In this document: positions 1,668 to 18,949 of the stretch, in pieces
Layout: each line of letters begins with the position of its first letter
How positions within the stretch are numbered: position 1 is the stretch's first letter
From: a virus
Strand: one strand, 5' to 3'
Length of the DNA: 19,288 nucleotides
UHGV virus genome: UHGV-1843802
Notes under the pieces: model-generated
Databases searched by the model: none
The model's input: only the letters and a program-made list of their open reading frames with translations
What the model was told of the DNA's origin: nothing
Program-made: the position numbers and the translations under genes

Positions 1668-1672
1668 CTGTA

Positions 1673-4600: not shown

Positions 4601-5455
4601 TTTCCCCTTTTCTACCCATTCTTTAAGAGATTCTGCTTTACCTGTGATCTCTTTAGTTATGTCGTACATGCCACGAGCCGCCATCCATAACGGCCCACCA
4701 GCACCGACACCAGCTGCATTTGTTAAAGACTCTTCACTGGAAGACTGATTGCCATCTACCCCCATAATGGAACCTAGCTTTCTGAGAAAGCCAGCTTGTA
4801 ATTTTGCGTCGGCTTTACATGCGTTCTGCAGTTCTTTTTTTCTGGCTACATCCTCATTGCTTTTCTGGGATACAAAACGTCCATTACTATCCCGCAGCGG
4901 GCCTTTTAGACTTTGGGGGGGTTGTGGTTCAAGAGGGGCTGAATTAGCAGCTACCGGTATAAAACCTTCTGATTTTCGGATGGTCTGACGTGATTGCACG
5001 GAGCGAACACTTTCTGGTGTGTTCGTTGCAACGATAGCGCGGTCCACGGTTTGGTTTATCGGTGCCCTTTCCTTTTTAGCAGGGAGACGTTTTTTATATG
5101 GGTTAGTTTGGACATCTCTAACGCTATCAGATGTACTTTGCTCGTAGTCTTTACGCCTGCGTGATAGTCTGTTGCTAACTCTGCCTTGCCTTTCGTCCTG
5201 TTGAGTTATGGTGCTTGCCCCAGAAAGAATGGCGTCTTTTACCTCAGCAAGAGCTTTTAGTTCGTTTGTGCTCGCCTCCTGAATAGCGTCAATTATTGCG
5301 ATACGGTCTTTATTCTCTTTCAAAATAACCTCTCTTTTACCAGCGCGATCAACGTTTCCCGGCTTGAGCTTTGTATTTTTCTTCCAGGGCTTTTGACATA
5401 TGGAGTGCTCGCCATTGCGGTAATTGTTCAACGTCGCTAACGGGCTGATATCCAT
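1673..5455 (-). CDS. Tail tape-measure-like protein, 1260 aa
   Basis: Uninterrupted 3.8-kb ORF with tape-measure composition: long Ala/Gly/Lys/Ser-rich helical low-complexity stretches and hydrophobic Gly-rich segments (AVPIIGSLAMAGYDAIDGY, GGLVSGATNLIGKGISALG). It lies between tail and baseplate-like genes. ATG at 5455; no clear ribosome-binding site, lying 14 nt after the upstream stop. Confidence 0.65.
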   Translation of the reverse strand: MDISPLATLNNYRNGEHSICQKPWKKNTKLKPGNVDRAGKREVILKENKDRIAIIDAIQEASTNELKALAEVKDAILSGASTITQQDERQGRVSNRLSRRRKDYEQSTSDSVRDVQTNPYKKRLPAKKERAPINQTVDRAIVATNTPESVRSVQSRQTIRKSEGFIPVAANSAPLEPQPPQSLKGPLRDSNGRFVSQKSNEDVARKKELQNACKADAKLQAGFLRKLGSIMGVDGNQSSSEESLTNAAGVGAGGPLWMAARGMYDITKEITGKAESLKEWVEKGKKETSTSKAISPVITYPAAVNSQKATSAKAFNNAVETKSAQAVEEQTKILQTNDNKIIDGLENVSDEIVKLRKSVSSGNKFGLSDLWKNRASRRNKINIGDQTGKNKRNKSKRKGRNLGKKALSVGEKVAAGSAAAGTGVGAAKVVKNKISKPKDVSTISDTSKGIAKETKNTAKAVKSAGVVAEDATIKTGEAIAKKKTESVALKSAEKIGVKSAASTAARAVPIIGSLAMAGYDAIDGYTDTEAQKAAFGLSDDDAVSEQQKTAYATANVLDMGGLVSGATNLIGKGISALGFERAGEKLQNFDTGDIARGVNGAVDITKSVFGSLKDTFLSTDENTKQVKKAVEDGTKKTVDAIHSLGEQLQGGRDGEDGVGEHGYTSPAEFNAPTSNTIAADLNIGGSNAKNRNYRNNNLGNLVFANQEGATLEAPNAKGEQRFARFNTPEEGIRALANQVSSYYNGTSAAAGYQKLQTVSSIISKWAPPKENNTNQYIDNVSKYLGVSPNEKIDVSNPEVMTQLVRAIATKEGGNPAVNNEFIKNALGAFNTNTGRWEGQFSDETLARINKIQKENGGQLIARDSQYSVGRKVKYANGKSPAQPVLDAVPTATQQPIEVAQHAQTVKKPQKTGNQSQPINPENVDVNTGSPSSLLERLIAINDSGVGNLFGGAATSLAGTSLGLIKDFASATSFGSISSLSEKAKGMDQALTEKISSLTGKSFGFQKASQVTDIRDALQKRPKAERDMPSVDLLSGVSSARESEKISVNSRGIPVYDNGYKVIDGEDKGVLGSLFDSSLTGLKRISSAVLPAIGDNVSQLIGGVDGTGIVNDLVYQATGQNSTIARAISPLTRSAGSWLNNGIQQTADSIRGISNEANNAIFGSASAVQEPFLALPPQLPTVTDLARSGIRQPLTTDTINNDPAMLKALDNICSILNDLLNVNKNNTKGDPDKVVKTSQPQPRPRASTTINDPSLDALLED

Positions 5456-5469
5456 ATAGAGTCAGGTTG

Positions 5470-6291
5470 TTAATAATGGTTAGCCATCCATTCAGATCTA
5501 ATTGATGGGATAAACTCTCTATTGAGAAAGGGGACGTACAGTGTGGTTGTCACATCTGCACCCTCCTTAGCGTTTTTGCAATGTTGCGGAGGCAGGATCA
5601 GTCGGCTTGAGCCTCTCTCAATAGACATTTTCAGGCCGTGGCGTAGGTCTTTTTGCATAAGCTGTATGCGAGCCACAAGCGGTGTAAACTCGGTTTCAAG
5701 CGCCATGCTTTCAATAATGTCAAAGCGTCGGTTAGCGGCCTGCGTGAAGTCCTCCGGATCGTCTTCAAGCGCCGTGCATAAAGCGAGTTCAGCAATCCGC
5801 ATCCGTGCCACGCCAGCACTGTATTCGGGGCTTTTCATATCAGGAAGTGACGCTCGCATTCGTTCAAGGAGTTCCGCGCCTTTCCCGGTTAATGGTTTAA
5901 GTATCCAGTCAGTTGGTACTCCATTTACTGGTACGTTGGTTTTCACGTAAGGAGGTACAGTGAGTATTTCTACTGTTTGGGCCAGGTCGCTCAGGTTAAT
6001 ATCTGCATGATGCGTATTACCGCAGTGACTGCACTCATAGGAGTAGGTCATTACTGCATCGGGGCGCGAATTAACAAATATCCACCAAAGAGCAGTTCTG
6101 CGATCCTGAACTGTCCAGTTAGCACTGTCGTTAATTTCACCATCCTGCATAGAGTTAAGGTACTCTGTAGTAGTTGCCTCATCTTCTGCCGGGTTCAGGT
6201 CAGAATATTTCAGCGCATCCTTCACGGTAGGGGCGTGGAACTGAATTTCTGTCTCAGGACGGGAAGGCAATGGGAATTTTGGAATGTTCAA
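5470..6291 (-). CDS. Hypothetical phage protein, 273 aa, with a Cys/His cluster (YECSHCGNTHH); first gene of the operon that contains the tape-measure-like gene
   Basis: TTG start at 6291 preceded by a strong ribosome-binding site (GGAGG, 5-nt spacer) on the minus strand; the next in-frame Met is 47 codons downstream. Function unknown. Confidence 0.5.
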   Translation of the reverse strand: MNIPKFPLPSRPETEIQFHAPTVKDALKYSDLNPAEDEATTTEYLNSMQDGEINDSANWTVQDRRTALWWIFVNSRPDAVMTYSYECSHCGNTHHADINLSDLAQTVEILTVPPYVKTNVPVNGVPTDWILKPLTGKGAELLERMRASLPDMKSPEYSAGVARMRIAELALCTALEDDPEDFTQAANRRFDIIESMALETEFTPLVARIQLMQKDLRHGLKMSIERGSSRLILPPQHCKNAKEGADVTTTLYVPFLNREFIPSIRSEWMANHY

Positions 6292-6395
6292 TTATTCCTC
6301 CGAAAAGCAGGTATCTGTTCATTTTCCAGAGGATAGGGAGTGTGTGATTTGCGATGGGGATTGAATGAAGATCTTTGCCGGTCGAGAAGCGATTA

Positions 6396-6537
6396 TTGAG
6401 GGTGATTTTTACACCTTAAGTGACGCTACTCACATATCCACAGAGTATTTTTATAAACCTTTTTCCATTTTTAATCCTTTTTAGATCCTTTTTAGGCGTC
6501 GCTGGAGCCAGTAGTGGCGCGGGCTGTAGAGGAGGCT
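6396..6537 (+). promoter_or_regulatory. Replication origin core: one inverted iteron, a DnaA-box-like 9-mer, and an AT-rich region likely to be the unwinding element
   Basis: Inverted iteron TTGAGGGTGATTTTTACACC at 6396-6415. ATATCCACA at 6434-6442 matches the DnaA box TTATCCACA at 8 of 9 positions. The AT-rich stretch 6445-6500 (tttttataaacctttttccatttttaatcctttttagatcctttttagg) contains repeated CCTTTTT motifs and a GATC. Confidence 0.6.
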
Positions 6538-6658
6538 GGTGTAAGAATTGCCCTCAATTAAATACGATCGGTGTAATATTTGCCCTCAAAAGGTGTAAGA
6601 TTTGCCCTCAAAAGGTGTAGTAATTGCCCTCAAAGTGATGTAAAAATTGCCCTCACCA
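6538..6658 (+). repeat. Five direct iterons (about 20 bp, mostly 22-bp spacing) immediately upstream of the initiator gene
   Basis: GGTGTAAGAATTGCCCTCAA (6538-6557), GGTGTAATATTTGCCCTCAA (6570-6589), GGTGTAAGATTTGCCCTCAA (6592-6611), GGTGTAGTAATTGCCCTCAA (6614-6633), and a degenerate GTGATGTAAAAATTGCCCTCAC (about 6635-6658). Consensus GGTGTAAnAATTGCCCTCAA. Confidence 0.85.
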
Positions 6659-6679
6659 TTCGAAGGATCACACAGGGTT

Positions 6680-7435
6680 ATGAACAGAGCGGAATTAACA
6701 GCAAAAGCCGTCAGCCTGATTGAGTCAGCGACACCTATTAGTCGTAGTTTGGCACAAGCCAATGAGATCACGGAGGCTGCTTATCACCTGACTCGCGACC
6801 AAAAGCGACTGTTGTTTATTGTGGTGGGAAGACTTCGCTATGCTTCTAAGGATGGCGTTCTTGGTTCAGGTGCCTGTGAGTTGACGGTCAACGAATATGC
6901 AGAGATGTATAATTTGCCCTCTGCTGAAGCCAGCAAGGATATTCGTAAGGCCATTTCAGGGCTTAGCGAGAAGAAAGTTACGATATATAACCCTGATGAA
7001 TCGACCGAATCAGAAGACAGTTATGAGTCTTATCCTTGGATGATTAAGGATGCCTATTCACCACGGCGCGGGACTTACATTATTCATCTTAATCCATATC
7101 TCATGCCGTTTTTTACTCTGCTTGATAAGAGATTCACAAGGCTGAATTTTACCGAAGTATCTCGCCTTACAAATCCTTATTCTATGCGGCTTTATGAGTC
7201 CTTATGCCAGTACAGGAAGGATGATGGAAGCGGCTTTGCCATACTTGGCGTCGAATGGATGCGGGAGCGTTATGGGTTACCAAAAAGCTATCAGCGGTAT
7301 GCCGAATTTAAGAGAAGTTTTTTAACGAAGGCTGTAGCAGAGATTGAAAAAAATACAAAAATGAAAATAGTCTTCTCAGAGGTGACGGAAGGCGGCAAAG
7401 TTACCAGGATAAAATTTACTTATCAGCAGTCTTAA
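6680..7435 (+). CDS. repE: Iteron-binding replication initiator, 251 aa, resembling F-plasmid RepE (RepFIA)
   Basis: ATG at 6680; the track's upstream TTG at 6647 lies inside the fifth iteron. Motifs shared with recalled F RepE: EAAYHLTRDQKRLLF, SAEASKDIRKA, YESYPWMIKDAYSPRRGTYIIHLNPYLMPFF, NPYSMRLYESLCQYRKDDGSG. Same length as RepE and flanked by iterons on both sides. Confidence 0.85.
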   Translation: MNRAELTAKAVSLIESATPISRSLAQANEITEAAYHLTRDQKRLLFIVVGRLRYASKDGVLGSGACELTVNEYAEMYNLPSAEASKDIRKAISGLSEKKVTIYNPDESTESEDSYESYPWMIKDAYSPRRGTYIIHLNPYLMPFFTLLDKRFTRLNFTEVSRLTNPYSMRLYESLCQYRKDDGSGFAILGVEWMRERYGLPKSYQRYAEFKRSFLTKAVAEIEKNTKMKIVFSEVTEGGKVTRIKFTYQQS

Positions 7436-7770
7436 GGGCAATTTTTACACCCTTCTCAAGGTGTAGAATTTGCCCTTAACGATCGGCAATTGAGGGCAAT
7501 TTTTACATCTTAATTGCATGTATCTTGTTATTAGCAAGTTGTGTTTTTATATAACGTATTGATATGTAAGGGATTATGTAAAAATCACCCTCAACCAATA
7601 TCGTGCGTATCGTGCATTCTTATTGCGCTTTTTTATTATCATTCACTGTGTTAACTGATTGATATTATTGAAATGTGTAAAGAATGCCTTCATTACAGAT
7701 GAATTGATGATGTAAAAAATGCCCTCAAAATTGCGCTACCTTCCCTACCCGCTATCGTTGAGGGCGTGGG
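7436..7770. repeat. Downstream iteron cluster in mixed orientations (copy-number control locus, analogous to incC), in AT-rich non-coding DNA
   Basis: GGGCAATTTTTACACC (inverted, about 7436-7451), GGTGTAGAATTTGCCCTTAA (7460-7479), TTGAGGGCAATTTTTACATC (inverted, 7490-7509), GTAAAAATCACCCTCAA (about 7578-7594), a degenerate TGTAAAGAATGCCTTCA (about 7676-7692), GATGTAAAAAATGCCCTCAA (about 7708-7727), and a half site GTTGAGGGCG (about 7757-7766). No ORF of any length. Confidence 0.75.
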
Positions 7771-7817
7771 TGCTGACGGGAAATGAGCAACCCTCCAGCA
7801 CACATAATTAAAGCTAT

Positions 7818-8525
7818 TCAGAATTTGATCACTCCACTGATAGCCCCCTTTAACGCACTTGTAGCCATGCCAGCGGCACCGTTGACCAAAGCAGAAACAC
7901 CTGAGCCTGCGGATGTGTATTTCTGGAAAGTGATTGGGTATGACAAGAACTCTGACACCTGATCACGTGAGCGAGTGATTTCCCCAAGTTGTGTAGGAAA
8001 TACGCGCATTTCTTCTTCCAGTTCTTTTCCGCCGTCCTGAGTCACCCGGTAGACACGGATTTTCATCAGATATTCAGGAGGAAGGTTTATTGTTCCATCA
8101 GGGTTTGTTACACGAGAACGACGCTCTTTGAACCAGTCCATGATCTTGCCATCTTCGGTATCCCTCACGGTCATAGTGACCGGTCCGGCGCTAACATAGG
8201 TTGGCTTGCTGAATTCTACGCTGCCGATCACCTTGCTTTCTGTCTCGATGTTCCCACTGCTGTAGGTGATATCCTTCACGAACATATCGAAGCCGTTCAG
8301 ACCATCCACTTCAACGGTCCACTGCCACCCCTGGGCGTAACGGATACGCATAGCAGCAGCAACAATATTTTTCCCGTAGGCAATATCGCTACTGTAATTC
8401 CCGCTTACCCCGCCGCCTGATATGGCTTTATCAAGAATGTCGCTAATGAGGTTGCTGGTGAATGATTTCGTGTTAAATGACAATGCGGTGGTCAACGTTC
8501 TACCAACGCTGCTGAAAATACTCAC
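7818..8525 (-). CDS. Hypothetical phage virion or tail protein, 235 aa
   Basis: GTG start at 8525 with a GGAGG ribosome-binding site 7 nt upstream on the minus strand. Last gene of the tail block before the replicon. No assignable motif. Confidence 0.5.
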   Translation of the reverse strand: MSIFSSVGRTLTTALSFNTKSFTSNLISDILDKAISGGGVSGNYSSDIAYGKNIVAAAMRIRYAQGWQWTVEVDGLNGFDMFVKDITYSSGNIETESKVIGSVEFSKPTYVSAGPVTMTVRDTEDGKIMDWFKERRSRVTNPDGTINLPPEYLMKIRVYRVTQDGGKELEEEMRVFPTQLGEITRSRDQVSEFLSYPITFQKYTSAGSGVSALVNGAAGMATSALKGAISGVIKF

Positions 8526-8540
8526 TCTGCGCCTCCAGCG

Positions 8541-9092
8541 TTAAAAAATGGTAGCCCCCGGAATAATGGCCCGGTTTGAGGACATTTTTTCCTCAATTTC
8601 CTGCACGCGGGCATATAGCGTGGCTTCATCGGGCAGATCGGAGTAGTCAAATTTCCCGTCGATGGACGCTCTACGCTGCCTGGCGACATTTCTTACGTTG
8701 ATAAGCGCCTCCAGATATTCCTCCAGCATTCCAATGATTGCAGGAGGCACTTGCCATTCATCCAGCTTTCTGTCGCGTAGATTAACCAGATACAGCATTC
8801 GAAAAGGCCAGCGTTCTGAACCTGTTAGCTCTAATTCAATAAATCCGGATAATTCATCCGAATAGACCAACAAGCCGTTGTTGTCGGTAACATGAACCAG
8901 AGAGAGATAATCTTCTGGCAACGGGATTGCAGTACCACCAGCTCTTTCAAGTTTTAACGTTTTCACTACCCCTGCCCTGTCCTGATACGTGGTCAGAGCT
9001 TTGATCAGGAAGGCTTTCAACGTTTCTTCTTCACGCACAAGTAGTGGATTAAATCGCTCTTTAACGCTTTCTAATAATTCAATTGGTGTCAT
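8541..9092 (-). CDS. Hypothetical phage virion or tail protein, 183 aa
   Basis: ATG at 9092. Tightly packed in the minus-strand operon, 15 nt upstream of the next gene. Confidence 0.5.
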   Translation of the reverse strand: MTPIELLESVKERFNPLLVREEETLKAFLIKALTTYQDRAGVVKTLKLERAGGTAIPLPEDYLSLVHVTDNNGLLVYSDELSGFIELELTGSERWPFRMLYLVNLRDRKLDEWQVPPAIIGMLEEYLEALINVRNVARQRRASIDGKFDYSDLPDEATLYARVQEIEEKMSSNRAIIPGATIF

Positions 9093-9146
9093 CGTTGCCT
9101 ACAACTCAATAACAAGGATGTTCCCGCCACAAGGGCGGGATAGGGA

Positions 9147-9638
9147 TTATTCCGCCCAGTTGTAAACAATGCGCAGGGAAGGTTTAACGACCGCCGTTAC
9201 GTCTTCGGATGAGAAGTCCACGGCGTCGGAATACACTTTGCAATGAGAATATGTGCGGATCAGACCTTTATGGTTACCGCTATTCGATTCAGCCGCCGCC
9301 TGTAAGGTAATTTCCAGATATTCTTTTCCGTATACCATCTGTTTTACAGCGGCGAGAACTGCGCCTTCGATAGTTTCCGCGCATGTGACCTGAAATTCAC
9401 CAGAGTTGCGTAATGGTCCGTGCTGGTTGAATTTCATGCCACCAGGGGCGTAATCCTCCACATCTTCGCGTGTCATTTCTGGTAACTGAGCTGTACGAAC
9501 TAGTACAGACAGATGTTCGTAACCCTTAATGGTCATCCAATATTCAGAACCAATAAGTTTTTCGCCTGCAGCCAGGTTTTTATTAAACCGGGATTTTAGA
9601 AAGGCCATATCGGCTTTTGTATTTGCAAAACCGGACAT
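9147..9638 (-). CDS. Hypothetical phage tail protein, 163 aa (size and position fit a tail tube protein; not verified)
   Basis: ATG at 9638 with a strong ribosome-binding site (AGGAG, about 7 nt spacer). Follows the sheath-like gene by three genes. Confidence 0.5.
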   Translation of the reverse strand: MSGFANTKADMAFLKSRFNKNLAAGEKLIGSEYWMTIKGYEHLSVLVRTAQLPEMTREDVEDYAPGGMKFNQHGPLRNSGEFQVTCAETIEGAVLAAVKQMVYGKEYLEITLQAAAESNSGNHKGLIRTYSHCKVYSDAVDFSSEDVTAVVKPSLRIVYNWAE

Positions 9639-9646
9639 AAATACTC

Positions 9647-10219
9647 CTACACAAAAACAGATGAGATATTGCTACGGTTGATCGATGTATTACCGCTGCA
9701 TTGCAGGGTTACCGTGTTATGAGTGAAATAGCCTTCCGGTGTGCGCGGGGCGTCCAGTTGGTAACTCACGCTTTTGATAACAACGTCGGTAAGGGCTATG
9801 TTCCTACCTATGTTTAACGTTACTGTCTCCGGGCGACGACCGAATGGCGCTACATTGTTCAGTTCCGGCGATTCCATCTTCAGCAATGCTGTAATGGCTG
9901 CGTTCACTTCAAGTTGCGCGTTCGTTGTCGCCATGAAATCAATTACCAGATTAAATTCAGGCGGTTGCTGACCTTCCCAAACAAGCATTGAGTTGAAGAG
10001 GGTTTTTGTTGTTACGCCGGTTGCGGTCTGAAGTGTATCTGCAAGAGAGCCAGCCGCAGCGCTAATACCGCCAAGTAAACCTCCTACTGACTGGTTTTCA
10101 AATGGTGATTGCCACATTGATGACAGTTCTGCGGTAGATCCTTCACCGATATAACCGACGACCATATCCTCTGAAGAGAGGATATAAACCTTCATTAACG
10201 GACTTATTCCGTCAGGCAT
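9647..10219 (-). CDS. Hypothetical phage virion protein, about 190 aa; start uncertain
   Basis: The ORF is open from a TTG at 10237. The first ATG is at 10219 and another at 10195; none has a convincing ribosome-binding site. The reading frame itself is clear and the stop is 9647-9649. Confidence 0.45.
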   Translation of the reverse strand: MPDGISPLMKVYILSSEDMVVGYIGEGSTAELSSMWQSPFENQSVGGLLGGISAAAGSLADTLQTATGVTTKTLFNSMLVWEGQQPPEFNLVIDFMATTNAQLEVNAAITALLKMESPELNNVAPFGRRPETVTLNIGRNIALTDVVIKSVSYQLDAPRTPEGYFTHNTVTLQCSGNTSINRSNISSVFV

Positions 10220-10286
10220 TATCGCGCCGCAAATCAAACGCTATTTCTCCCAGGTAGAGGCCACCTTTGCAGGCGGCCTATGTCAC

Positions 10287-11021
10287 TTACAAACCGCGTT
10301 TTTTGCGAATGCGCATTGATTTTTTGCGGTTGATATTCGCTACGGATGTATGTGCTTTGCGGCGTGCTTTTTTCAGCGCCTGTTTTTGCAATGACGTCAT
10401 GCGGCGAGGACGCGGGCGTTTACGGATGATGGTAACCTTGCCATCACGAACCACTTTTTTACGTACCGCTTCCAGCATTGCGCTATCACCACCAGCAACG
10501 GTGTAAATGGCAATAGCTGTTTCCATCATGTCGGTGTCGCTTTCGGAAAGAGCGTCATAAACACGTTCGGCAGCTGAGTCATCTTCATCGTCGATCATTT
10601 CGGTTACATCGTCCTGATCAGCGCCAAGCGCGACAGCTGCATCAGCAAGAGCTGCGAGAGCATCGTTATAAGCATCGATTTGCTCATCGGTGAAATCGGT
10701 GTCTTCATCGATATCAGCCAGGCCAGCCATAGTGATTGCTAATGCATCAAATGAGTCAGCCTCCGGATCACCATCTTCAACCCAACCAGCAAGCATGGAC
10801 GCTGCCAGGCTGCGCATATCACCTTGTGCACGGGATTCAACCGCTTCCATCATCGCGGTTTCAATGTCGTCTTTGGGCTTTGGTTGAGTGTCCTTTCCTT
10901 TCTGTCCTGCGCTTTCCAGCATGGCGTTATCATTATTGTCCTGCGTGGATTTATCACCGCTTTCAAAGCAGCCAGAACCGAAAATCGCACGCATAAAAGG
11001 ATCAGCAGTATAATTTTTCAT
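10287..11021 (-). CDS. Highly acidic protein with a strongly basic Arg/Lys-rich C-terminal tail, 244 aa; function unknown
   Basis: ATG at 11021 with a GGAGAGAGG ribosome-binding site about 8 nt upstream; the track's upstream GTG at 11042 is less likely. The N-terminal two-thirds are rich in Asp/Glu/Ala (DGDPEADSFDALAITMAGLADIDEDTDFTDEQIDAYNDALAALADAAVALGADQDDVTEMIDDEDDSAAE). The last 50 residues are basic (RKRPRPRRMTSLQKQALKKARRKAHTSVANINRKKSMRIRKKRGL). Confidence 0.55.
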   Translation of the reverse strand: MKNYTADPFMRAIFGSGCFESGDKSTQDNNDNAMLESAGQKGKDTQPKPKDDIETAMMEAVESRAQGDMRSLAASMLAGWVEDGDPEADSFDALAITMAGLADIDEDTDFTDEQIDAYNDALAALADAAVALGADQDDVTEMIDDEDDSAAERVYDALSESDTDMMETAIAIYTVAGGDSAMLEAVRKKVVRDGKVTIIRKRPRPRRMTSLQKQALKKARRKAHTSVANINRKKSMRIRKKRGL

Positions 11022-11065
11022 ATTCAAACCTCTCTCCCCCACATCATTTAGCGGGGGGTTATAAA

Positions 11066-12724
11066 TCAGCGCATCAGAATTGGCTTACCGACGATTCGGC
11101 GAGCTGTACCGGTCGGACAAACAGACCAGGACACTTCCCACAGATCGATGTCCTTTTGGACAACCTGAACAACATATGGATCTTCGCCCTGGGACTTGTC
11201 ACGTGGAGTAACCAGCGCACCGGCTGCAACGTAACGGTCAAGCAATTCAGTCATTGCTTTCATTAGCGTTTCTTTGGTAATGCCATCCGGTTCGTGCTTA
11301 ATCGCCTGAGCTACTTCATAGAAATCTCTGGCGATGGCGTTCATCAAGGAAGACACATGCTGGAATCGCAGATAGTTGTTTTTGCTGTAAGTTGTTAAAG
11401 AGTCGTCAATGTAAACGGACCCGTCAGCAGCAACTGAAACTGGATTAATGCGCGCAAGAACGAACGCTTCACGATCAACTGCACCGATATTTGGAATTCG
11501 GGCAATGTTCTGTCGATCAATAATCGCGCGTGATATACCTGCCGGTGCGTAATGCCAACCACCAACATCCGGTACCAGCGCTACCCCTTTTGCTTTTGCT
11601 ACGAATGCGTCGCAACTAATGCCATAGACGACATTCATCCCAGTGAAGGTATCTCGGCAGGAGAGCGGGAAGTAGTAACGGCTTGGTTGATGTGAGCCGC
11701 CAAAACTATGGCTTTTCGCTTCTGAAATAGCGTTTTCAGGTGTCTGGTTGCCCTTCAGGTCATAGAACATGTCTACGCGAACGTCTTCAGCCAGCTTTTT
11801 GATTGCGGCTAAGGCGGATGCGTCATAACAGCCCAGTGACAGCAATGCGGTGTAATTAACCTCTGAAGCTTCGAGAACCTTTAATGCTTCCAGATAGTCT
11901 TCAGTGTCAATTTCGGACAGATCTCCATCAGTACCACCTTCAAAAGCTACATCCTCAAAAATGAGTTGAGCAGCGGATGCTTCTGCATTATCTGCCAGCA
12001 CGGCACCAATGCGAGTGGACTGGCTTTCAAGCAGTGTCGGAATCCATGCTGGTTGGCCCATGTCGTTAGTGCCTTCTGGATTGAAAGACACTTGGTGGCT
12101 TTCCAGCACCTCAATGGACCCATCGGTTTGTTTTTCTTTCAGCGTCAGCGTAAAGAGTTCGCTTTCTTCATCATCGCGAGTTAGTGATAACGTGCGATTT
12201 TGAGATGCATCACCATCTTTGATGAAGAATAATGCCTTCTCTTCACCTTTAATCTGGGGCGTCTCTTTGGGTGTGAAGGACACTGATTGAGTCGTTGCAG
12301 TTGAAGCAACACCAACGCTTAATGTGTCACCTGGATTTACTGTGGTTTCAGTAGGTTCAACGGAAAGTTCTTTGCTCGCCTTTGCCGCTTTTGCTTTGCC
12401 CACAACGGAAACAGAAATACCCGGCACCTTCATGTCTTTAGCGCAAACTCGAACGACATATCCGGAGCCGCCTTTTACTGCACGCTCCACGTGGCGGTAT
12501 GGTTCAAATGCCGCTCCCAGACGAGGGTGAATCGGTGAACCTAATACGCTTTGATAAGTCGTATCGTCAACTTTCAGTACCTTACCCGGTGCGCCACGAC
12601 GCGATATTACAAGCCCAGCAAAGACGGATGCGCCACCGCTGGTATTGGTGAGGGTAGCGTCAGCATTTACTGACATTACAGCAACGCCAGCTGCCTGCCC
12701 TACCGAAAAACTAATCTTATTCAT
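11066..12724 (-). CDS. Putative contractile tail sheath protein, 552 aa
   Basis: ATG at 12724. Size and position (first gene after the capsid and decoration genes and an attenuator hairpin) fit a sheath. The C-terminal third (...GVALVPDVGGWHYAPAGISRAIIDRQNIARIPNIGAVDREAFVLARINPVSVAADGSVYIDDSLTTYSKNNYLRFQHVSSLMNAIARDFYEVAQAI...) has the spacing pattern I associate with sheath C-terminal domains such as P2 FI. Unverified. Confidence 0.5.
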   Translation of the reverse strand: MNKISFSVGQAAGVAVMSVNADATLTNTSGGASVFAGLVISRRGAPGKVLKVDDTTYQSVLGSPIHPRLGAAFEPYRHVERAVKGGSGYVVRVCAKDMKVPGISVSVVGKAKAAKASKELSVEPTETTVNPGDTLSVGVASTATTQSVSFTPKETPQIKGEEKALFFIKDGDASQNRTLSLTRDDEESELFTLTLKEKQTDGSIEVLESHQVSFNPEGTNDMGQPAWIPTLLESQSTRIGAVLADNAEASAAQLIFEDVAFEGGTDGDLSEIDTEDYLEALKVLEASEVNYTALLSLGCYDASALAAIKKLAEDVRVDMFYDLKGNQTPENAISEAKSHSFGGSHQPSRYYFPLSCRDTFTGMNVVYGISCDAFVAKAKGVALVPDVGGWHYAPAGISRAIIDRQNIARIPNIGAVDREAFVLARINPVSVAADGSVYIDDSLTTYSKNNYLRFQHVSSLMNAIARDFYEVAQAIKHEPDGITKETLMKAMTELLDRYVAAGALVTPRDKSQGEDPYVVQVVQKDIDLWEVSWSVCPTGTARRIVGKPILMR

Positions 12725-12761
12725 GCTGGTTCTTATCCTCTAAAGCGAGAGAACGAGGCAA

Positions 12762-12786
12762 GGCTACCCACGGTTAATGGGTAGCC
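12762..12786 (-). terminator. Perfect 9-bp GC-rich stem-loop just after the Ig-like gene stop; candidate attenuator or partial terminator
   Basis: GGCTACCCA (12762-12770), loop cggttaa, TGGGTAGCC (12778-12786). On the minus-strand RNA the stem is followed by UUGCCUCGUUCUCUCGCUUU, a pyrimidine and U-rich tract. Confidence 0.4.
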
Positions 12787-12791
12787 TCTGA

Positions 12792-13070
12792 TCAGGATTC
12801 GCTTACCGTGAAGTTGTCGCCTACGGTTACTTCTTTCGTAGTTGGTTCAACACTGACGGCGCTTACGCTTTTAGGTGCCTCCCTAACAGTGACCGTGCAC
12901 TGTGCGGTTTTATTGCCGTCATTAGTTTTGATTGTCAGCACTGCCTGCCCTGCCTTAAGAGCGGTACATGTAGTGCCATCAACCTGGACAATTTCAGGGT
13001 GATCGGACTCAACAGTGAAAGATTTGTCTGTTGCGTCAGATGGCGAGATAGTTACTTGAATGTTTGCCAT
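12792..13070 (-). CDS. Ig-like (Big_2-type) domain protein, 92 aa; likely capsid decoration or accessory virion protein
   Basis: ATG at 13070 with a GGAG ribosome-binding site 7 nt upstream. The alternating beta-strand pattern VTISPSDATDKSFTVESDHPEIVQVDGTTCTALKAGQAVLTIKTNDGNKTAQCTVTV is typical of bacterial Ig-like group 2 domains. Confidence 0.6.
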   Translation of the reverse strand: MANIQVTISPSDATDKSFTVESDHPEIVQVDGTTCTALKAGQAVLTIKTNDGNKTAQCTVTVREAPKSVSAVSVEPTTKEVTVGDNFTVSES

Positions 13071-13081
13071 TCTTTTCTCCT

Positions 13082-13110
13082 GAACACCCCTTATTCAGGG
13101 GCGTGTTTTT
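13082..13110. other. Stem-loop (about 9 bp with one bulge) followed by a T5 run on the plus strand; on the coding minus strand it is a stem-loop without a U tract
   Basis: GAACACCCC, loop ttattca, GGGGcGTGTT, then TTTTT at 13106-13110. Its geometry is that of an intrinsic terminator for plus-strand (antisense) transcription, or a stabilising or processing hairpin in the late mRNA. Confidence 0.35.
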
Positions 13111-13113
13111 GCC

Positions 13114-13218
13114 TTACTTCTGCTTTGTTTTTTTCTGTGCCTTTGAAGTGTTCGCGGCGATAGTTTCACCTTCATCTACGTCAAGTGACGTTGGTGATAC
13201 CGACACGTTCGCCACCAT
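13114..13218 (-). other. 34-codon ORF in the -1 frame, overlapping the capsid-like gene stop; candidate -1 frameshift extension of that protein
   Basis: The capsid-like gene ends ...GAA AAA AAG TGA. The heptamer A AAA AAG is the classic -1 slippery site. The -1 frame continues VMVANVSVSPTSLDVDEGETIAANTSKAQKKTKQK to a TAA at 13114-13116. Confidence 0.25.
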
Positions 13219-14915
13219 CACTTTTTTTCGTTAACCTTGCCTGACAGCATGTCGATAGCACCTTCTTTGGCACGAGTCAGACGCAGGCGGGTGAAGTAGT
13301 TTTCACCGTTGCGAGGATGTACTTCGTTGATGGCACTGCCCCAGAGAGTGGTACGGTTAACGAGAGACGGATTGGTTTCGTGCACGTAAGGGATTGCAGG
13401 GACTGCATCACCAGCAATCAGACCGGCTTTACCGATGCCTTCGCCACGCCCATAGAAGAAGATGTCATCCAGCCCGAAGTCATATCCCTGTGCCTGGAAT
13501 TGCTCACAGACAGGTTGCGGCACTTCGTAAATACGAATCGTGCCAAACAGGGTGCCGATGTACTGTACATACGGCGACTGAACGTAACCTGGTGCGATCT
13601 GGAAGTGCTGTGGAGGCAGAGAGCGCAGGAAGTTCGCGGCGTCACCACCAGCAAAGCCGCCACGAATACCCGTTGTCAGGGTGCGATTTGCCATTTCCTG
13701 AGACAGAGCGTTTACTACGTGACGCAGGAGGCCGACCCAGGACTCATAGTTTTGAGCTTCCGGCAGAGCCACATCAAATTCACGACCATAAACGGTATGG
13801 AATACTAGGGTGCGCAGACGCATGATGTCAGTCTCATGGGAGATCCAGTTACGCATCGCGGAGAACTGAAGTGCCGCTAATTCAAGGCCGTGCTCACGGC
13901 TTAAATCGGATGCGGACATTACCGTGTGTTCGGAGGCAATTACGTACTGGGACGGACGAACTTCGTACTTACGCATAGCCTGGTTGATCACCGGAATCAG
14001 GCTTGGATTGCGCTCGATGTTAATTTCGACCTGAACAGCAATTTCAGTACCTTCTGGCGGAGCCTGGGTAAATGTAATGTCAATGACACCAGTGTCATAG
14101 GCAACTTTGGCAGTCGCTGAGAAAGCATTACCTTTGCTGTCTTTAGCATTGAAATAAAGGTTGCCATCGCCGTCGTCAACTTTGGACGGTTTGCGGTTGA
14201 TCAGCAGTTTGTTATAACCAGCGCGAAGCGGGCAGGATTGTCCCTCAAAATTTTGGATGTCGAACTGGAAGGTTTTGGTGCTGCCATCCCCTTTAGTGGA
14301 AAGGGTATACAGGCGCTTCATTTGAGAATAAACACCAGCTGACTGCATATTCAGTTCGTCACCTTGTTTGAAGGTGCCGAATTTTGTGCCTGCTACGTTG
14401 ACCAGTTCATAAATATTTGACTCGTCACGATCACAAGGAACAAAAGTACAGGCATCACTGGTAGCAGCGCCCAGAGAGGCAGGCAGAATTAGAGCAGCAT
14501 ATTGAGCAACTTTCATTACGCCGTCAGAGCTACGCATTGATTGCGCGACAGACTCAAACATTGCCTTACCCGTGCCTTCATGGGTATCACTGGCACATTC
14601 AGTCATCAGGCGTTCAAGAGCCATGTGTGCGTTCGCCAGGATGTCACTTGCCGGGTAATGACCATGTTGACGTTTATACTCATGCAGAGACATAGCCCAC
14701 CCACCAGTGATCTGACGAGCGACCTCTGGATTTACGCCTTCAAACATAGGCACTTTCTGGATTGCTTTATCCAGGTTTTCCATCATTACTGCCTGGTCAG
14801 CAATCATGTTGCCTGCTGCATCGGTGGTCGGATCGACGGTCATAGCCATGACGCTTGCCGCCCGATTCATAATCTCGCGCTCGCGATCACGAGCTGGCTG
14901 AATGTTTTTATTCAC
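13218..14915 (-). CDS. Putative major capsid protein, 565 aa (large structural protein, first gene of the late operon in this window)
   Basis: 1.7-kb ORF with a GTG start at 14915 (AGGG about 8 nt upstream); the first in-frame ATG is at 14870. It is followed by a possible frameshift extension, a stem-loop, an Ig-like gene and an attenuator hairpin, the layout of a highly expressed capsid and decoration pair. The alternative is another major structural protein. Confidence 0.5.
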   Translation of the reverse strand: MNKNIQPARDREREIMNRAASVMAMTVDPTTDAAGNMIADQAVMMENLDKAIQKVPMFEGVNPEVARQITGGWAMSLHEYKRQHGHYPASDILANAHMALERLMTECASDTHEGTGKAMFESVAQSMRSSDGVMKVAQYAALILPASLGAATSDACTFVPCDRDESNIYELVNVAGTKFGTFKQGDELNMQSAGVYSQMKRLYTLSTKGDGSTKTFQFDIQNFEGQSCPLRAGYNKLLINRKPSKVDDGDGNLYFNAKDSKGNAFSATAKVAYDTGVIDITFTQAPPEGTEIAVQVEINIERNPSLIPVINQAMRKYEVRPSQYVIASEHTVMSASDLSREHGLELAALQFSAMRNWISHETDIMRLRTLVFHTVYGREFDVALPEAQNYESWVGLLRHVVNALSQEMANRTLTTGIRGGFAGGDAANFLRSLPPQHFQIAPGYVQSPYVQYIGTLFGTIRIYEVPQPVCEQFQAQGYDFGLDDIFFYGRGEGIGKAGLIAGDAVPAIPYVHETNPSLVNRTTLWGSAINEVHPRNGENYFTRLRLTRAKEGAIDMLSGKVNEKK

Positions 14916-15073
14916 GGTTAAGCCCTAAATTCGGGCGCGGCGTGAAGGTTCTTTTGACGGGCTAACAATACCTACTTTGTGATTTAGTCAATAGGTTTAG
15001 TAAAATAAAATCTATTAACACGCATGTTGTTATGTGATTTAATTTTAGTTTTCTAACACAAAACATTAGAGTT

Positions 15074-15466
15074 ATGGCGTATCGAATCTTTGTTTCGTAT
15101 AAAAATGGCGCTAAGAGCCACTCTCTGAACACAACAAGTCGCTTTCTTGTTGAGGCGCAGTTGGCATCAATTCTTGCCGAAAGTGAGATACTCTCGCTCG
15201 CTGAACGGATCGTTATCCAGTTTTCTGGTAGAGATATACTCAATGTCCCCGCCCTCACCCCGGCATCCGAAGTTATGGAATCAATTAAATGGCCTGTATG
15301 CGGATGTCCTGCCAGGGTTGAAGAGCCGGTAACTGCAACGCTCTACATGCCGAAAGCTGTAAGAGATTGGCTTGCTATGGTTGGCAATGGGAAAGTCAGT
15401 GCTGGACTTCGCAAGTTAATTGAAATGGCAGATATTCCTGAGTTAAAAAATGCATGGCGACAATGA
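15074..15466 (+). CDS. Hypothetical protein, 130 aa, with a C-terminal ribbon-helix-helix-like DNA-binding motif; first gene of a two-gene accessory operon
   Basis: ATG at 15074 after a 158-bp AT-rich region divergent from the capsid operon. The C-terminal segment PVTATLYMPKAVRDWLAMVGNGKVSAGLRKLIEMA has the strand-helix-helix pattern of Arc/CopG-type RHH domains. The N-terminal 90 residues are unassigned. Confidence 0.55.
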   Translation: MAYRIFVSYKNGAKSHSLNTTSRFLVEAQLASILAESEILSLAERIVIQFSGRDILNVPALTPASEVMESIKWPVCGCPARVEEPVTATLYMPKAVRDWLAMVGNGKVSAGLRKLIEMADIPELKNAWRQ

Positions 15467-15482
15467 GTAAACAAGGGACAAA

Positions 15483-15941
15483 ATGAGTCACGTTAACCCA
15501 TCAAAAACACAATATCGCTTAATGCTGGCGATCGCGTCAGCTATACCAACCAGCCTGAATCCCCCGGCAGGCTATCCCGCTGTTGTTGATGATTGTTTTC
15601 AGTATTACGGAGAAGACATCCTGAGCCAGTCCAAAGCGCTCAAGCAGTTATGTAAGGCAGGTATTCTTCACTGTATCGGAGATCCGGACGATTTTGTTGT
15701 TATGCTGGCGGATCGTGACTCTTTTCTACTGTCCTGGAAAGCCGGTGCGCGCGAAGCACGTTTGGGGAATGGTATTGGTTACATAGACTATAGTGATTTT
15801 CCGCTGGCATTTGCTGGTGGATATATGCATTGGCATGAGCGAAATAGAGGCCGTCAGCGTCAGTATCGCTTGAGTGACTTTAACGTCTGTCACGGTTTCG
15901 AAGAAGCTGACAGCCAGGACATCTGGCTTCAGGAGCCTTGA
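15483..15941 (+). CDS. Hypothetical protein, 152 aa, unknown function; second gene of the accessory operon
   Basis: ATG at 15483 with an AAGGGA ribosome-binding site 4-5 nt upstream, 16 nt after the upstream stop. Its 3' end overlaps the convergent spanin-like gene by 13 bp. No recognisable motif. Confidence 0.55.
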   Translation: MSHVNPSKTQYRLMLAIASAIPTSLNPPAGYPAVVDDCFQYYGEDILSQSKALKQLCKAGILHCIGDPDDFVVMLADRDSFLLSWKAGAREARLGNGIGYIDYSDFPLAFAGGYMHWHERNRGRQRQYRLSDFNVCHGFEEADSQDIWLQEP

Positions 15942-16261
15942 TCCCCCTTCCCTTCCCAAATCTCCCTGTTTCTTTGGTTATTCAGTGCGTTTCGTTGGTT
16001 GCATTCGTCGATCGTGCTGAATAACTGTTCAGCGTATGTCGGATACTTGTTTAACAGCACTGGCGTGTCCTCTGGCACTAAACAAGGGGAGTAATCAATC
16101 AGATTTGCCTGCGGCTTGCTGGTGGCTTCTACGGTAATTTTCACTGGCACGCTGGTTGATGGCTTTTGCCCGTTCCCGCTGCATCCTGATAACGTCATCA
16201 GGCACACGCACATCGTTAATCCCAGCACGGCGTAACGCATTTTCAAGGCGAGTGATTTCAT
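15929..16261 (-). CDS. Putative o-spanin (Rz1-like outer-membrane lipoprotein), 110 aa precursor
   Basis: Lipoprotein signal with lipobox LSGC (MKSLALKMRYAVLGLTMCVCLMTLSG-C) and Ser at +2. The mature part contains Pro and Cys. The gene starts inside the i-spanin-like ORF in a different frame and extends beyond its stop, the overlapped spanin architecture. Start is ATG 16261 (GAGG upstream) or ATG 16240. Confidence 0.5.
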   Translation of the reverse strand: MKSLALKMRYAVLGLTMCVCLMTLSGCSGNGQKPSTSVPVKITVEATSKPQANLIDYSPCLVPEDTPVLLNKYPTYAEQLFSTIDECNQRNALNNQRNREIWEGKGDQGS

Positions 16262-16568
16262 TCTGGCTTTCCTCTCGTTGTTTGATTAGGTTGGCATTCA
16301 GTTCTGCTGTTTTGCGCTGGTACTCCTTTTCCAGTGCTTTAATTCTTTCGTTTTCGGTCAGCATGGCTGAGCGAGCGTTCTCACTTAACTGTAATGCGGT
16401 AGAAAGCGTGTTGTTCGTGCTTTCCAGTTGTGATTTTGAGTCTTCAAGCGATCGGACATACCTGATGTGTTCGATAACTGCCGTCGTTGTTCGGTAAATT
16501 CCAGAAATGGCTAAAAGCGCAATTACAATCAAAATTATCTTTTTCAAAACCATCCTCTCCAGGTTCAT
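16095..16568 (-). CDS. Putative i-spanin (Rz-like), 157 aa: one N-terminal transmembrane helix followed by a coiled coil
   Basis: N-terminal hydrophobic segment KKIILIVIALLAISGIY, then a long charged helical region (LEDSKSQLESTNNTLSTALQLSENARSAMLTENERIKALEKEYQRKTAELNANLIKQREESQNEITRLENALRRAG). The lipoprotein gene is embedded in and overlaps it. No ribosome-binding site at the ATG at 16568. Confidence 0.5.
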   Translation of the reverse strand: MNLERMVLKKIILIVIALLAISGIYRTTTAVIEHIRYVRSLEDSKSQLESTNNTLSTALQLSENARSAMLTENERIKALEKEYQRKTAELNANLIKQREESQNEITRLENALRRAGINDVRVPDDVIRMQRERAKAINQRASENYRRSHQQAAGKSD

Positions 16569-16623
16569 TTTTGGTGTTAAACATGTACCAATTTACATCC
16601 TTTTGTGTGCCTAAGTGGTGTTT

Positions 16624-17430: not shown

Positions 17431-17714
17431 TATGCAACCTGAAAAATATCCTCGCCGTTGGCGATAACAGAACCACAAGAAAGCGGATCGCCTACACAGA
17501 CAACTCCCTTTCCACCTATCGAAAACCATACTCGCGTCGATACAGCTGCCCCTGGATGTGCACTGTTACCGTCAGTGTGACTGGGAAACATGGCACCATC
17601 TACAACAACTGGCTTACCGTTAACGGTGAACCAGGGAACAGTTTCAGCTACCAGTCGCGGCGGAAATCCTCCGTGACCAGAACAAAGGGTGTCGCTGGTG
17701 GCTATTGCGCTCAT
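17430..17714 (-). CDS. PAAR-like domain protein, 94 aa (putative tail-spike tip protein)
   Basis: ATG at 17714 with a near-consensus ribosome-binding site (AGGAGGT, 6-nt spacer) on the minus strand. The sequence CSGHGG...TVNGKPVVVDGAMF...HPGAAVS...SIGGKGVVCVGDPLSCGSVIANG follows the pattern of PAAR-repeat domains (HGG, then NGKP-AAR-GD, repeated, with conserved Cys and Gly). The motifs are divergent, so this is a provisional call. Confidence 0.55.
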   Translation of the reverse strand: MSAIATSDTLCSGHGGFPPRLVAETVPWFTVNGKPVVVDGAMFPSHTDGNSAHPGAAVSTRVWFSIGGKGVVCVGDPLSCGSVIANGEDIFQVA

Positions 17715-17799
17715 TCTTCACCTCCTGGTTATCCTCCTATTGTCATCACTTTGTTATTTCGTCATTCAAACTGAGAGTTAAATTTCGGAATATTTTTGT

Positions 17800-17953: not shown

Positions 17954-17979
17954 ATGTGTCTCAGAAGTGGAGCAAGAAG

Positions 17980-18936: not shown

Positions 18937-18949
18937 CGAGGTAATGTCC

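What the first reader, a model, noticed from the sequence alone, without database searches (positions are those of the whole stretch)
10287..11021. Acidic Ala-rich protein with a highly basic C-terminal tail, encoded inside the tail operon
The composition is extreme: a long Asp/Glu/Ala-rich N-terminal region followed by about 50 residues dense in Arg and Lys. Acidic helical proteins in phages are often scaffolds or DNA mimics that counter restriction (Ocr and ArdA types). A basic tail suggests nucleic-acid binding or packaging into the virion. Its position between the sheath-like and tube-sized genes is unusual for a scaffold. It could be an ejected internal protein or an assembly chaperone.
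Basis: inference. Interest (0 to 1): 0.4.

Follow-up and report, generated by a model that had tools for sequence, protein, structure and literature searches.

The report
Misannotated prohead core protein of P1-like phages
This gene, labelled for twenty years as a "baseplate or tail tube" gene of P1-type phages, most likely encodes an internal head-assembly (core) protein that the head-maturation protease cuts into an acidic piece and a very basic piece, like protein gp68 of phage T4.

Summary
Window 10287-11021 (- strand) encodes a 244-aa protein: residues 51-185 have net charge -36 and no Lys, and residues 186-244 have net charge +24. The window is a phage D6 relative, and the ORF is the orthologue of P1 gene 21 ("baseplate or tail tube").

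The anti-restriction DNA-mimic idea has no support. No Pfam, PDB or fold match was found.

Three results point to the head instead.
1. The protein carries three copies of A-M-(L/M)-E|(S/A). This is the motif at which P1 capsid protein gp23 is cut (Edman-determined site). In the whole D6 proteome the motif occurs only in the protease Pro, DarA, the gp23 propeptide and this protein.
2. Across 20 P1-like genomes, the residue before the cut (E or D) in gp21 always matches the capsid protein's site. It switched twice independently.
3. The basic C-terminal module is homologous to that of T4 prohead core protein gp68 (hhalign 88%, E 2.7e-6; above all shuffled controls).

Published P1 proteomics and cryo-EM do not find gp21 in the tail.

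Best reading: a gp68-like prohead core protein processed by Pro. It is a new member of a known kind and corrects the annotation.

The parts
10287..11021 (-). CDS of the 244-aa protein. It is the orthologue of D6 orf47 and P1 gene 21, and is proposed here to be a gp68-like prohead core protein.
   Evidence: PHROG 1053 (unknown function) E 3e-85
11029..11035 (-). Shine-Dalgarno sequence AGAGAGG, 7 nt before the ATG
   Evidence: read from the sequence
10914..11021 (-). Residues 1-36: predicted N-terminal propeptide. It is disordered and ends at the first predicted cut.
   Evidence: AF2 pLDDT below 50 for residues 1-7 and 15-49; E36 is invariant in the family
10911..10925 (-). Predicted protease site 1: A-M-L-E|S (residues 33-37). 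The 5-mer is identical to the Edman-determined cleavage site of P1 gp23.
10842..10856 (-). Predicted protease site 2: A-M-M-E|A (residues 56-60)
10494..10874 (-). Residues 50-176: acidic, Ala-rich helical domain made of six predicted helices
10467..10481 (-). Predicted protease site 3: A-M-L-E|A (residues 181-185). It lies in a low-confidence linker directly before the basic module. E184 is invariant.
10290..10466 (-). Residues 186-244: basic module, consisting of a beta-hairpin (KKVVRDGKVTIIRK) and a helix of about 30 residues that ends in ...RKKRGL. It is homologous to the C-terminal module of T4 gp68.
14553..14915 (-). [quoted passage not shown] It carries P-M-F-E|G (14736-14750) and the maturation site A-M-F-E|S (14550-14564). 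These serve as the reference substrate for the motif.

Best explanation
The gene encodes an internal prohead (core or scaffold-type) protein of P1/D6-like phages, the counterpart of T4 prohead core protein gp68. It is made from the late 23-22-21 operon together with the capsid protein. It is built into the prohead interior with the protease Pro, DarA/Hdf and the gp23 propeptide. When Pro is activated, the protein is cut after Glu in A-M-(L/M)-E|(S/A) at E36, E59 and E184. These cuts release a short N-terminal peptide, an acidic helical body (about residues 60-184) and a 60-residue basic module (185-244; beta-hairpin plus long basic helix). The acidic fragments probably leave the head. The basic module is the conserved functional end. 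It either anchors the protein to the shell or core before cleavage, or stays with the DNA afterwards.

Shown computationally: the motifs, their exclusivity, their co-variation with the capsid protein's site, and the homology to gp68.

Inferred: the cleavage itself, the location in the prohead, and any role in head size.
For: 1. The mature P1 gp23 N-terminus is SVAAEM by Edman degradation (PMC9024508). The cut is therefore NKAMLE|S. D6 gp23 has KAMFE|S at the homologous place.

2. In the D6 proteome (110 CDS, 26,369 aa), the pattern M-[LFMI]-E-[SAG] occurs 10 times. All 10 are in Pro (4), DarA (1), the gp23 propeptide (2) and this protein (3). The DarA hit is at residue 63. In P1 DarA the looser scan finds LLE|A at residues 66-69, next to the first 69 residues that are invisible by cryo-EM (PMC12810830). 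Shuffling predicts 2.4 hits in the whole proteome. Shuffling gp21 alone gives P(>=3 hits) = 5e-6. In P1 the same pattern hits only the gp23 cut site and Pro.

3. E36 and E184 are invariant in 24 family members. Both lie in segments with pLDDT below 50.

4. Co-variation. In 19 genomes (17 distant loci plus D6 and P1), the residue before the cut at the MCP site (12 E, 7 D) equals that at the gp21 sites in every case. The preceding hydrophobic residues (M versus I/V) track as well. A 20th genome, L027, is also concordant (D type). The D type arose in two separate clades of an MCP tree.

5. hhalign of 16 diverse family members against 14 T4-type gp68 sequences gives prob 88.5%, E 2.7e-6 and score 44.1. 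The alignment covers the whole basic module to the C-terminus. In 100 column shuffles of the gp68 module the maximum score was 29.6.

6. A gp68 HMM searched against 2012 local proteins and ORFs ranks only gp21 homologues at the top (best E 1.4e-5). The first decoy appears at E 2.2.

7. gp68 has the same layout: an acidic N-terminal half, then a conserved L-N-E|F directly before IVKHVSxRGE. gp68 is a prohead core protein cut by the T4 protease at L/I-x-E and has been linked to head-size determination (PMC9958956, PMC9026906).

8. gp21 is absent from the P1 virion proteome table, although its neighbours ORF 54, 55, 57 and 58 were detected. It is not named anywhere in the 2026 cryo-EM paper on the P1 virion, whose list of modelled head, connector and baseplate proteins does not include it.
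Against: P1 gene 21 carries the classical label 'baseplate or tail tube' (GenBank note). From my memory of Walker & Walker 1983, amber mutants of gene 21 were tail-defective. I could not read Lobocka 2004 or Walker 1983, so I do not know how firmly the amber alleles were tied to this ORF.

The gene sits between the sheath gene and the tube-junction gene in every genome examined, not next to the protease and portal genes.

Homology to gp68 covers only about 57 columns of a highly basic segment, and it is weak when only close P1/D6 sequences are used (E 0.004, prob 8%).

No experiment shows cleavage of this protein or its presence in proheads.

The looser motif pattern was shaped with P1 gp21 in view. 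The stricter pattern used for the statistics was not.
Confidence: 0.68

Rival explanations
1. It is a non-structural tail or baseplate assembly factor (a chaperone for the tape measure, tube or hub). This is what the old label 'baseplate or tail tube' combined with absence from the virion would suggest.
For: GenBank notes for P1 gene 21 and D6_47. Conserved position inside the block 22-21-pmgG-bplB-pmgC-tub-pmgB-sit. Not found in virions. The protein is acidic, as many tail chaperones are, and the tape measure Sit is basic (pI 9.4).
Against: There is no sequence or fold match to any tail chaperone, tube or baseplate family. No overlapping frameshift ORF was seen on the - strand at its 3' end. 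This reading does not explain why the protein carries the head-protease motif three times, why that motif is exclusive to head-maturation substrates, why it co-varies with the capsid protein's cut site, or why the C-terminus matches T4 gp68. The adjacent genes pmgG and bplB are bona fide tail genes and could account for a tail-defective allele mapped nearby.
Confidence: 0.12
2. It is a charge-masked precursor of a DNA-binding internal peptide. The acidic domain neutralises the basic module until Pro cuts at E184. The 60-residue peptide (net +24) then stays in the head, binds the packaged DNA, and may be ejected with it. This is a variant of the best explanation that differs on what the product does.
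For: The basic module is the best conserved part of the family. In the D6 and P1 clades the AMLE|A-type site aligns 3-6 residues before the module. The same placement is seen in P0252 (MILE|S). Some relatives carry two modules (P0200, P0252). Tryptic LC-MS/MS would miss the module, because its peptides are at most 7-10 aa, so published proteomics does not exclude it. P1 heads contain unassigned low-resolution internal density.
Against: There is no direct evidence of retention in virions. T4 reviews describe the gp68 fragments as small peptides that presumably leave the head. A basic helix could equally be a shell- or core-binding anchor, as is known for scaffolding proteins (my general knowledge; not tested here).
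Confidence: 0.15
3. It is an Ocr/ArdA-like DNA mimic that blocks type I restriction.
For: The acidic helical domain has net charge -36. P1-like phages do package anti-restriction proteins (the Dar system) in the head, so a head-internal, N-terminally processed protein could in principle be injected.
Against: No Pfam hit to any family, which includes the Ocr and ArdA families. No Foldseek or PDB sequence match. The acidic region is the least conserved in sequence and length across the family. The gene is fixed in the late structural operon. The homology found is to a T4 core protein.
Confidence: 0.03

Closest known systems
Bacteriophage T4 gp68 (prohead core protein, 141 aa)
   Same: Both have an acidic N-terminal part, then a protease site directly before a beta-hairpin-like 'hVKxVxxxGEh' segment, then a long Lys/Arg-rich helix ending in ...RKxxGL at the C-terminus. 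The C-terminal modules align at hhalign prob 88.5%, E 2.7e-6, above all shuffled controls. gp68 is a substrate of a Glu-specific prohead protease with an h-x-E motif. gp21 carries the matching motif of its own phage's protease.
   Different: The D6 protein is 100 residues longer, with a much larger acidic helical domain that has no detectable similarity to gp68. Its gene lies after the sheath gene, whereas T4 gene 68 lies between portal and protease. gp68's presence in the core and its cleavage are experimentally established; here both are inferred.
T4 gp22 and other separate scaffolding proteins (P22 gp8 type)
   Same: Similar size (244 versus 269 aa), acidic and helical. gp22 is degraded at multiple h-x-E sites by the prohead protease and carries 10 such motifs. 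gp21 carries three copies of the corresponding motif.
   Different: No detectable homology to gp22 (hhalign prob 0.5%). gp22 has no basic C-terminal module.
P1 Dar internal head proteins (DarA, DarB and others)
   Same: They belong to the same phage group. DarA carries the same motif near its N-terminus: AMFE|S at residues 62-66 in D6, LLE|A at 66-69 in P1. DarA is known to be processed during head maturation.
   Different: Dar proteins are large, are retained on the capsid inner surface or in the head, and are detected by proteomics and cryo-EM. gp21 is not. There is no sequence similarity.
Ocr / ArdA DNA-mimic anti-restriction proteins
   Same: Strongly acidic, helical.
   Different: No sequence or fold similarity. 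A late structural operon rather than an early or leading-region gene. A basic C-terminal module and protease sites are not features of those families.

Membership tests
T4 gp68-type prohead core protein | Sequence homology to gp68 | tested here: met
   hhalign A2 against A4: prob 88.5%, E 2.7e-6, 57 columns, C-terminal module only. Shuffled controls reach at most 29.6 against the real score of 44.1. A gp68 HMM retrieves only gp21 homologues from 2012 sequences. With close relatives only the match is weak. The Pfam model PF26830 for gp68 is not in the local Pfam copy.
T4 gp68-type prohead core protein | Carries cleavage motifs of the cognate prohead protease, one of them directly before the basic module | tested here: met
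   AMLE|S, AMME|A and AMLE|A. The motif matches the Edman-determined gp23 site. It is exclusive to head substrates in D6. It co-varies E/D with the MCP site in 20 of 20 genomes.
T4 gp68-type prohead core protein | Physically present in the prohead core and degraded on maturation | not testable with these tools
   Needs prohead preparations. Published virion data are only consistent with absence of the intact protein, and tryptic MS would miss the fragments.
T4 gp68-type prohead core protein | Gene clustered with the portal, protease and scaffold genes | tested here: not met
   The gene lies two genes downstream of the MCP gene, between the sheath gene and pmgG, in all loci. prt and pro are about 27 kb away in D6.
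T4 gp68-type prohead core protein | Influences head size or shape | not testable with these tools
   No deletion of gene 21 is reported in the papers read.
Tail tube / baseplate structural protein (current annotation) | Homology to tube, baseplate or tail-chaperone families | tested here: not met
   Only PHROG 1053 'unknown function'. No Pfam hit. No PDB sequence or fold hit.
Tail tube / baseplate structural protein (current annotation) | Present in the virion tail or baseplate | tested here: not met
   Checked in the literature only. gp21 is not in P1 LC-MS/MS Table 1. It is not named in the P1 cryo-EM paper, whose list of modelled connector, tail-junction and baseplate proteins does not include it.
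Ocr / ArdA DNA mimics | Sequence or fold similarity to Ocr or ArdA | tested here: not met
   No Pfam match at E up to 10. Foldseek against PDB and BFVD found nothing with E <= 0.001.
Ocr / ArdA DNA mimics | Surface charge pattern that imitates B-form DNA | not tested
   The model has pLDDT 72 and pTM 0.44.
T4 gp22-type major scaffold | Homology to gp22 | tested here: not met
   hhalign prob 0.5%.

The most novel reading that the evidence does not exclude
P1-like phages (and, by homology, T4 through gp68) make a 'pro-protamine'. This would be a 60-residue peptide of net charge +24, kept inert by a fused acidic domain. The head protease releases it inside the prohead, and it is then retained on the packaged DNA and possibly co-injected. 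It would be a conserved DNA-condensing or DNA-escorting peptide class that tryptic proteomics has missed.
Probability: 0.15. Interest if true: 0.6.

Novelty: new member of a known kind. Interest (0 to 1): 0.5.

Why it matters
P1 is a classic model phage and the prototype of a large group of phage-plasmids. Two recent structural papers state that P1 has no separate scaffold or core protein (PMC9024508, PMC12810830). Meanwhile gene 21 has kept an unverified tail label and is named 'tail tube protein' in databases.

If this protein is a gp68-like core protein, three things follow. The annotation of several hundred homologues changes. P1 head assembly gains a missing component that could bear on its unusual production of normal, small and minute heads. 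And the motif A-M-(L/M/F)-E|(S/A) becomes a usable predictor of substrates of the P1-type prohead protease, including an E-to-D specificity switch that occurred twice.

The claim is directly testable with one deletion and one mass-spectrometry experiment.

Tried and rejected
- Pfam on the protein and its neighbours: nothing for the target.
- PHROGs: only family 1053, 'unknown function', also for 16 diverse relatives.
- PDB sequence search with a family profile: 0 hits at E <= 10.
- AlphaFold2 model (pLDDT 72) searched with Foldseek against PDB and BFVD: no hit at E <= 0.001. The best BFVD hit was an uncharacterised Bacillus phage SP-15 protein at E 6e-3.
- Homology to the T4 major scaffold gp22: rejected.
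- Lobocka 2004, Walker & Walker 1983 and Gilcrease & Casjens 2018 are not held in the library. The basis of the 'gene 21 = tail' assignment could therefore not be checked.
- The supplement of PMC9024508 says nothing about gp21.
- The search for related loci with the full-length diverse alignment failed for lack of a conserved stretch. An alignment of the basic module alone worked.
- Pfam PF26830 (the gp68 family) is not in the local Pfam copy.
- The promoter/terminator scan found nothing on the - strand around the gene, which is consistent with co-transcription in the operon.
- PmgS, annotated in D6 as 'putative prohead scaffolding protein', was considered as the real scaffold. It carries none of the protease motifs. 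Gonzales 2022 reports that the gene block containing it is not needed for morphogenesis.

Full report
**What is there.** The window is a close relative of Escherichia phage D6. Window 674-19288 aligns with D6 39835-58447 at 98.96% identity. The finding's coordinates are exact for a - strand ORF. It starts at ATG 11021, stops at 10287-10289 and encodes 244 aa, with an AGAGAGG ribosome-binding site 7 nt upstream. The composition claim holds. Residues 51-185 carry net charge -36 with no lysine. Residues 186-244 carry net charge +24 (pI 12). Alanine makes up 14.8%. The protein is 100% identical to D6 orf47 and about 41% identical to P1/P7 gp21. The GenBank note for P1 gene 21 reads 'baseplate or tail tube'.

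The surrounding genes, all on the - strand, are:
- 23 (major capsid protein, 13218-14915)
- a small Ig-domain ORF
- 22 (sheath, 11066-12724)
- this gene
- pmgG, bplB, pmgC and tub
- a Rep3 replicon on the + strand
- pmgB, sit (tape measure) and pmgA.

**Database searches on the protein itself.** The protein has no Pfam domain and falls in PHROG 1053, 'unknown function'. A family profile finds nothing among PDB sequences. An AlphaFold2 model (pLDDT 72) shows the following:
- a disordered N-terminus (residues 1-49)
- six helices (50-176)
- a low-confidence linker (178-185)
- a beta-hairpin (187-200)
- a long helix (210-241).

Foldseek against PDB and BFVD gives no significant match. There is therefore no support for an Ocr/ArdA-type DNA mimic or for any tail chaperone, tube or baseplate family.

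**What the literature says about P1 gp21.** The P1 virion proteome detected the products of the flanking ORFs 54, 55, 57 and 58 (BplB, PmgG, gp22, gp23) but not ORF 56, which is gp21 (PMC9024508). The 2026 cryo-EM study of P1 virions built models for Tub, PmgG, gp6, gp5, UpfC, gp26, PmgA, gp16, BplA, gp7 and PmgC, among others. It never mentions gp21 (PMC12810830). Both papers state that P1 has no separate scaffolding protein. The tail label thus has no modern support.

My in-silico digest shows that trypsin would yield almost no detectable peptides from processed gp21. The acidic core is one peptide of 83-102 aa, and the basic tail gives pieces of at most 10 aa. Absence from the proteome is therefore weak evidence about fragments of the protein.

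**The key lead: protease motifs.** A family alignment shows two invariant glutamates, E36 and E184, inside A-M-L-E-S and A-M-L-E-A. Edman sequencing of mature P1 gp23 gave SVAAEM, so the capsid protein is cut at NKAMLE|S. D6 gp23 has KAMFE|S at the same position.

I scanned whole proteomes with M-[LFMI]-E-[SAG].
- In D6 (110 CDS, 26,369 aa) there are 10 hits, all in four proteins: the prohead protease Pro (4), DarA (1, at residue 63), the gp23 propeptide (2) and this protein (3, at residues 33-37, 56-60 and 181-185).
- Shuffling predicts 2.4 hits for the whole proteome. Shuffling gp21 alone gives P(>=3) = 5e-6.
- In P1 the same pattern hits only the gp23 cut site and Pro.

A looser pattern finds five sites in P1 gp21 and three in gp23, all within the 120-residue propeptide. 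It also finds two in the first 70 residues of DarA. One of these, LLE|A at residues 66-69, agrees with the first 69 DarA residues being invisible by cryo-EM. The predicted sites in the D6 protein at residues 33-37 and 181-185 fall in low-confidence, presumably exposed segments of the model.

**Co-variation test.** I fetched 21 loci of distant P1-like phages from IMG/VR (28-45% identity to D6). Wherever the flanks are complete, the order 23-22-21-pmgG-bplB-pmgC-tub-pmgB-sit-pmgA-bplA is kept. The test uses 19 genomes with both genes, D6 and P1 included. In all of them the residue before the scissile bond at the aligned capsid-protein site equals the residue at the aligned gp21 sites. Twelve genomes are E-type and seven are D-type. 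An example of the D type is MCP KMLD|S with gp21 AMLD|G, AFFD|G, QMLD|A and MMMD|A. The preceding hydrophobic residues (M versus I/V) also track. A further genome, L027, has MCP QLLD|A and a gp21 homologue with seven [ILV]LD|x repeats. On a neighbour-joining tree of the mature capsid protein, the D-type genomes form two separate clades, each sister to E-type genomes. The switch therefore happened at least twice, each time in both proteins together. The simplest explanation is that one protease reads both proteins, and that places gp21 inside the prohead.

**Homology to T4 gp68.** While comparing with the T4 head-core genes, I saw that T4-type gp68 (141 aa, 'prohead core protein') has the same layout. 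It has an acidic N-terminal half, a conserved L-N-E|F, then IVKHVSxRGEhTRTK, a Lys/Arg-rich helix and a C-terminal ...RKALGLS.
- Profile-profile comparison of 16 diverse gp21-family members with 14 gp68 sequences gives probability 88.5%, E 2.7e-6 and score 44.1. It spans D6 residues 188-244 and gp68 residues 71-141, reaching both C-termini.
- One hundred column shuffles of the gp68 basic module scored at most 29.6 (95th percentile 22.5). The reversed alignment scored 17.7.
- A gp68 HMM searched against 2012 local sequences (family members, the D6 and P1 proteomes, and all ORFs of the loci) ranks only gp21 homologues at the top (best E 1.4e-5). The first decoy appears at E 2.2.
- With only close P1/D6 sequences the signal is weak (E 0.004). 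The homology is limited to the basic module, so I treat it as probable, not certain.
- There is no homology to the T4 major scaffold gp22.

According to two T4 reviews, gp68 is a non-essential core component present in about 240 copies. It is cut by the gp21 protease at L/I-x-E and is implicated in head-size determination.

**Mechanism proposed.** The protein is made late, together with the capsid protein, and is built into the prohead interior. Pro then cuts it after E36, E59 and E184. This separates a short N-terminal peptide, an acidic helical body and the conserved basic module. What the module does is open. It may anchor the protein to the shell or core until cleavage. Alternatively it may remain with the DNA as a basic peptide. 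Relatives with two modules (P0200, P0252) and the conserved placement of a cut site directly before the module favour a function for the released module, but nothing here proves it.

**The main conflict.** The classical genetic label is the main obstacle. I could not read the primary papers. The two genes immediately downstream, pmgG and bplB, are genuine tail genes. T4 gp68 is non-essential. A conditional-lethal, tail-defective 'gene 21' allele could therefore lie in a neighbouring gene rather than in this ORF. That is inference, and sequencing the old alleles would settle it.

**Verdict.** The DNA-mimic interpretation is not supported, while 'scaffold/internal protein' is close to the mark. 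The best-supported reading (confidence about 0.68) is a gp68-like prohead core protein processed by the head protease. This makes it a new member of a known kind and a correction of a long-standing annotation, with clear experiments to test it.

Noticed in passing
window 1-673 and 625-1296: The first 673 bases do not match D6. They encode an IS3-type transposase OrfA (218-628, - strand; Pfam HTH_Tnp_1, E 2e-19). The baseplate wedge gene bplA is cut short here: 223 aa against 476 aa in D6. This plasmid prophage probably has an IS inserted in an essential tail gene and may be defective.
   Followed up: partly
window 6396-7732: A Rep3-family initiator gene on the + strand (6647-7435; Pfam Rep3_N and Rep3_C) interrupts the tail operon between pmgB and tub. 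It is flanked by iterons of consensus GGTGTAAnAnTTGCCCTCAA. Five copies at a spacing of about 22 bp lie at 6537-6660, and further copies in both orientations lie at 6396-6415 and 7432-7732.
   Followed up: partly
window 12792-13218: A 92-aa Big_2 Ig-domain ORF (12792-13070) lies between the capsid and sheath genes. D6 additionally annotates a 34-aa ORF at 13114-13218 in the same gap. P1 has no such genes here. A more distant relative (L027) has a 171-aa gene in the same position. This may be a decoration protein.
   Followed up: no
window 11036-11057 and 10258-10279 (- strand): GC-rich hairpins flank the gene. CCCCC-N12-GGGGG lies just 5' of its ribosome-binding site, and AGGCCGCC-TGCAAA-GGTGGCCT lies just after its stop codon. 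Neither is followed by a U-run. They were read by eye. The terminator scan lists nothing on the - strand.
   Followed up: no
L004:22494-23492 (D6 pro) and L002:19014-20033 (P1 pro): The prohead protease carries four to five copies of the same cleavage motif. In D6 all four lie in the C-terminal part of the protein (residues 169-295). In P1 Pro that part gives weak coiled-coil-type Pfam matches. This looks like a self-cleaved, scaffold-like domain fused to the protease. PHROGs labels this family 'tail fiber protein', and the RefSeq P1 record does the same. This appears to be another misannotation.
   Followed up: partly
L009, L010, L015, L016, L019, L021, L022, L027: In two separate clades of P1-like phages, the residue before the maturation cut changed from Glu to Asp in the capsid protein and in every gp21 site together. 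This implies two independent changes in protease specificity. The protease genes of these phages were not in the fetched stretches.
   Followed up: partly
P0200 (408 aa), P0252 (412 aa), P0258 (417 aa), P0164 (351 aa): Some distant homologues carry two copies of the basic module (P0200, P0252). Others carry greatly expanded N-terminal arrays of the cleavage motif: seven [ILV]LD|x repeats in P0258 and several [MLF]FE|S repeats in P0164.
   Followed up: no
L028:1407-1832 (T4-type gene 68): The gp68 alignment shows two conserved candidate protease sites, I-P-E|A (residues 19-22) and L-N-E|F (64-68). The second lies directly before the basic module. If used, these sites would release a 74-residue basic peptide in T4-like phages as well.
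   Followed up: no
window 17430-17714 and 16624-17529: A PAAR-motif protein (the UpfC homologue; Pfam E 4.5e-6) lies next to the UpfB homologue. This is consistent with the spike-tip and 'tripod' assignments in the P1 cryo-EM paper.
   Followed up: no
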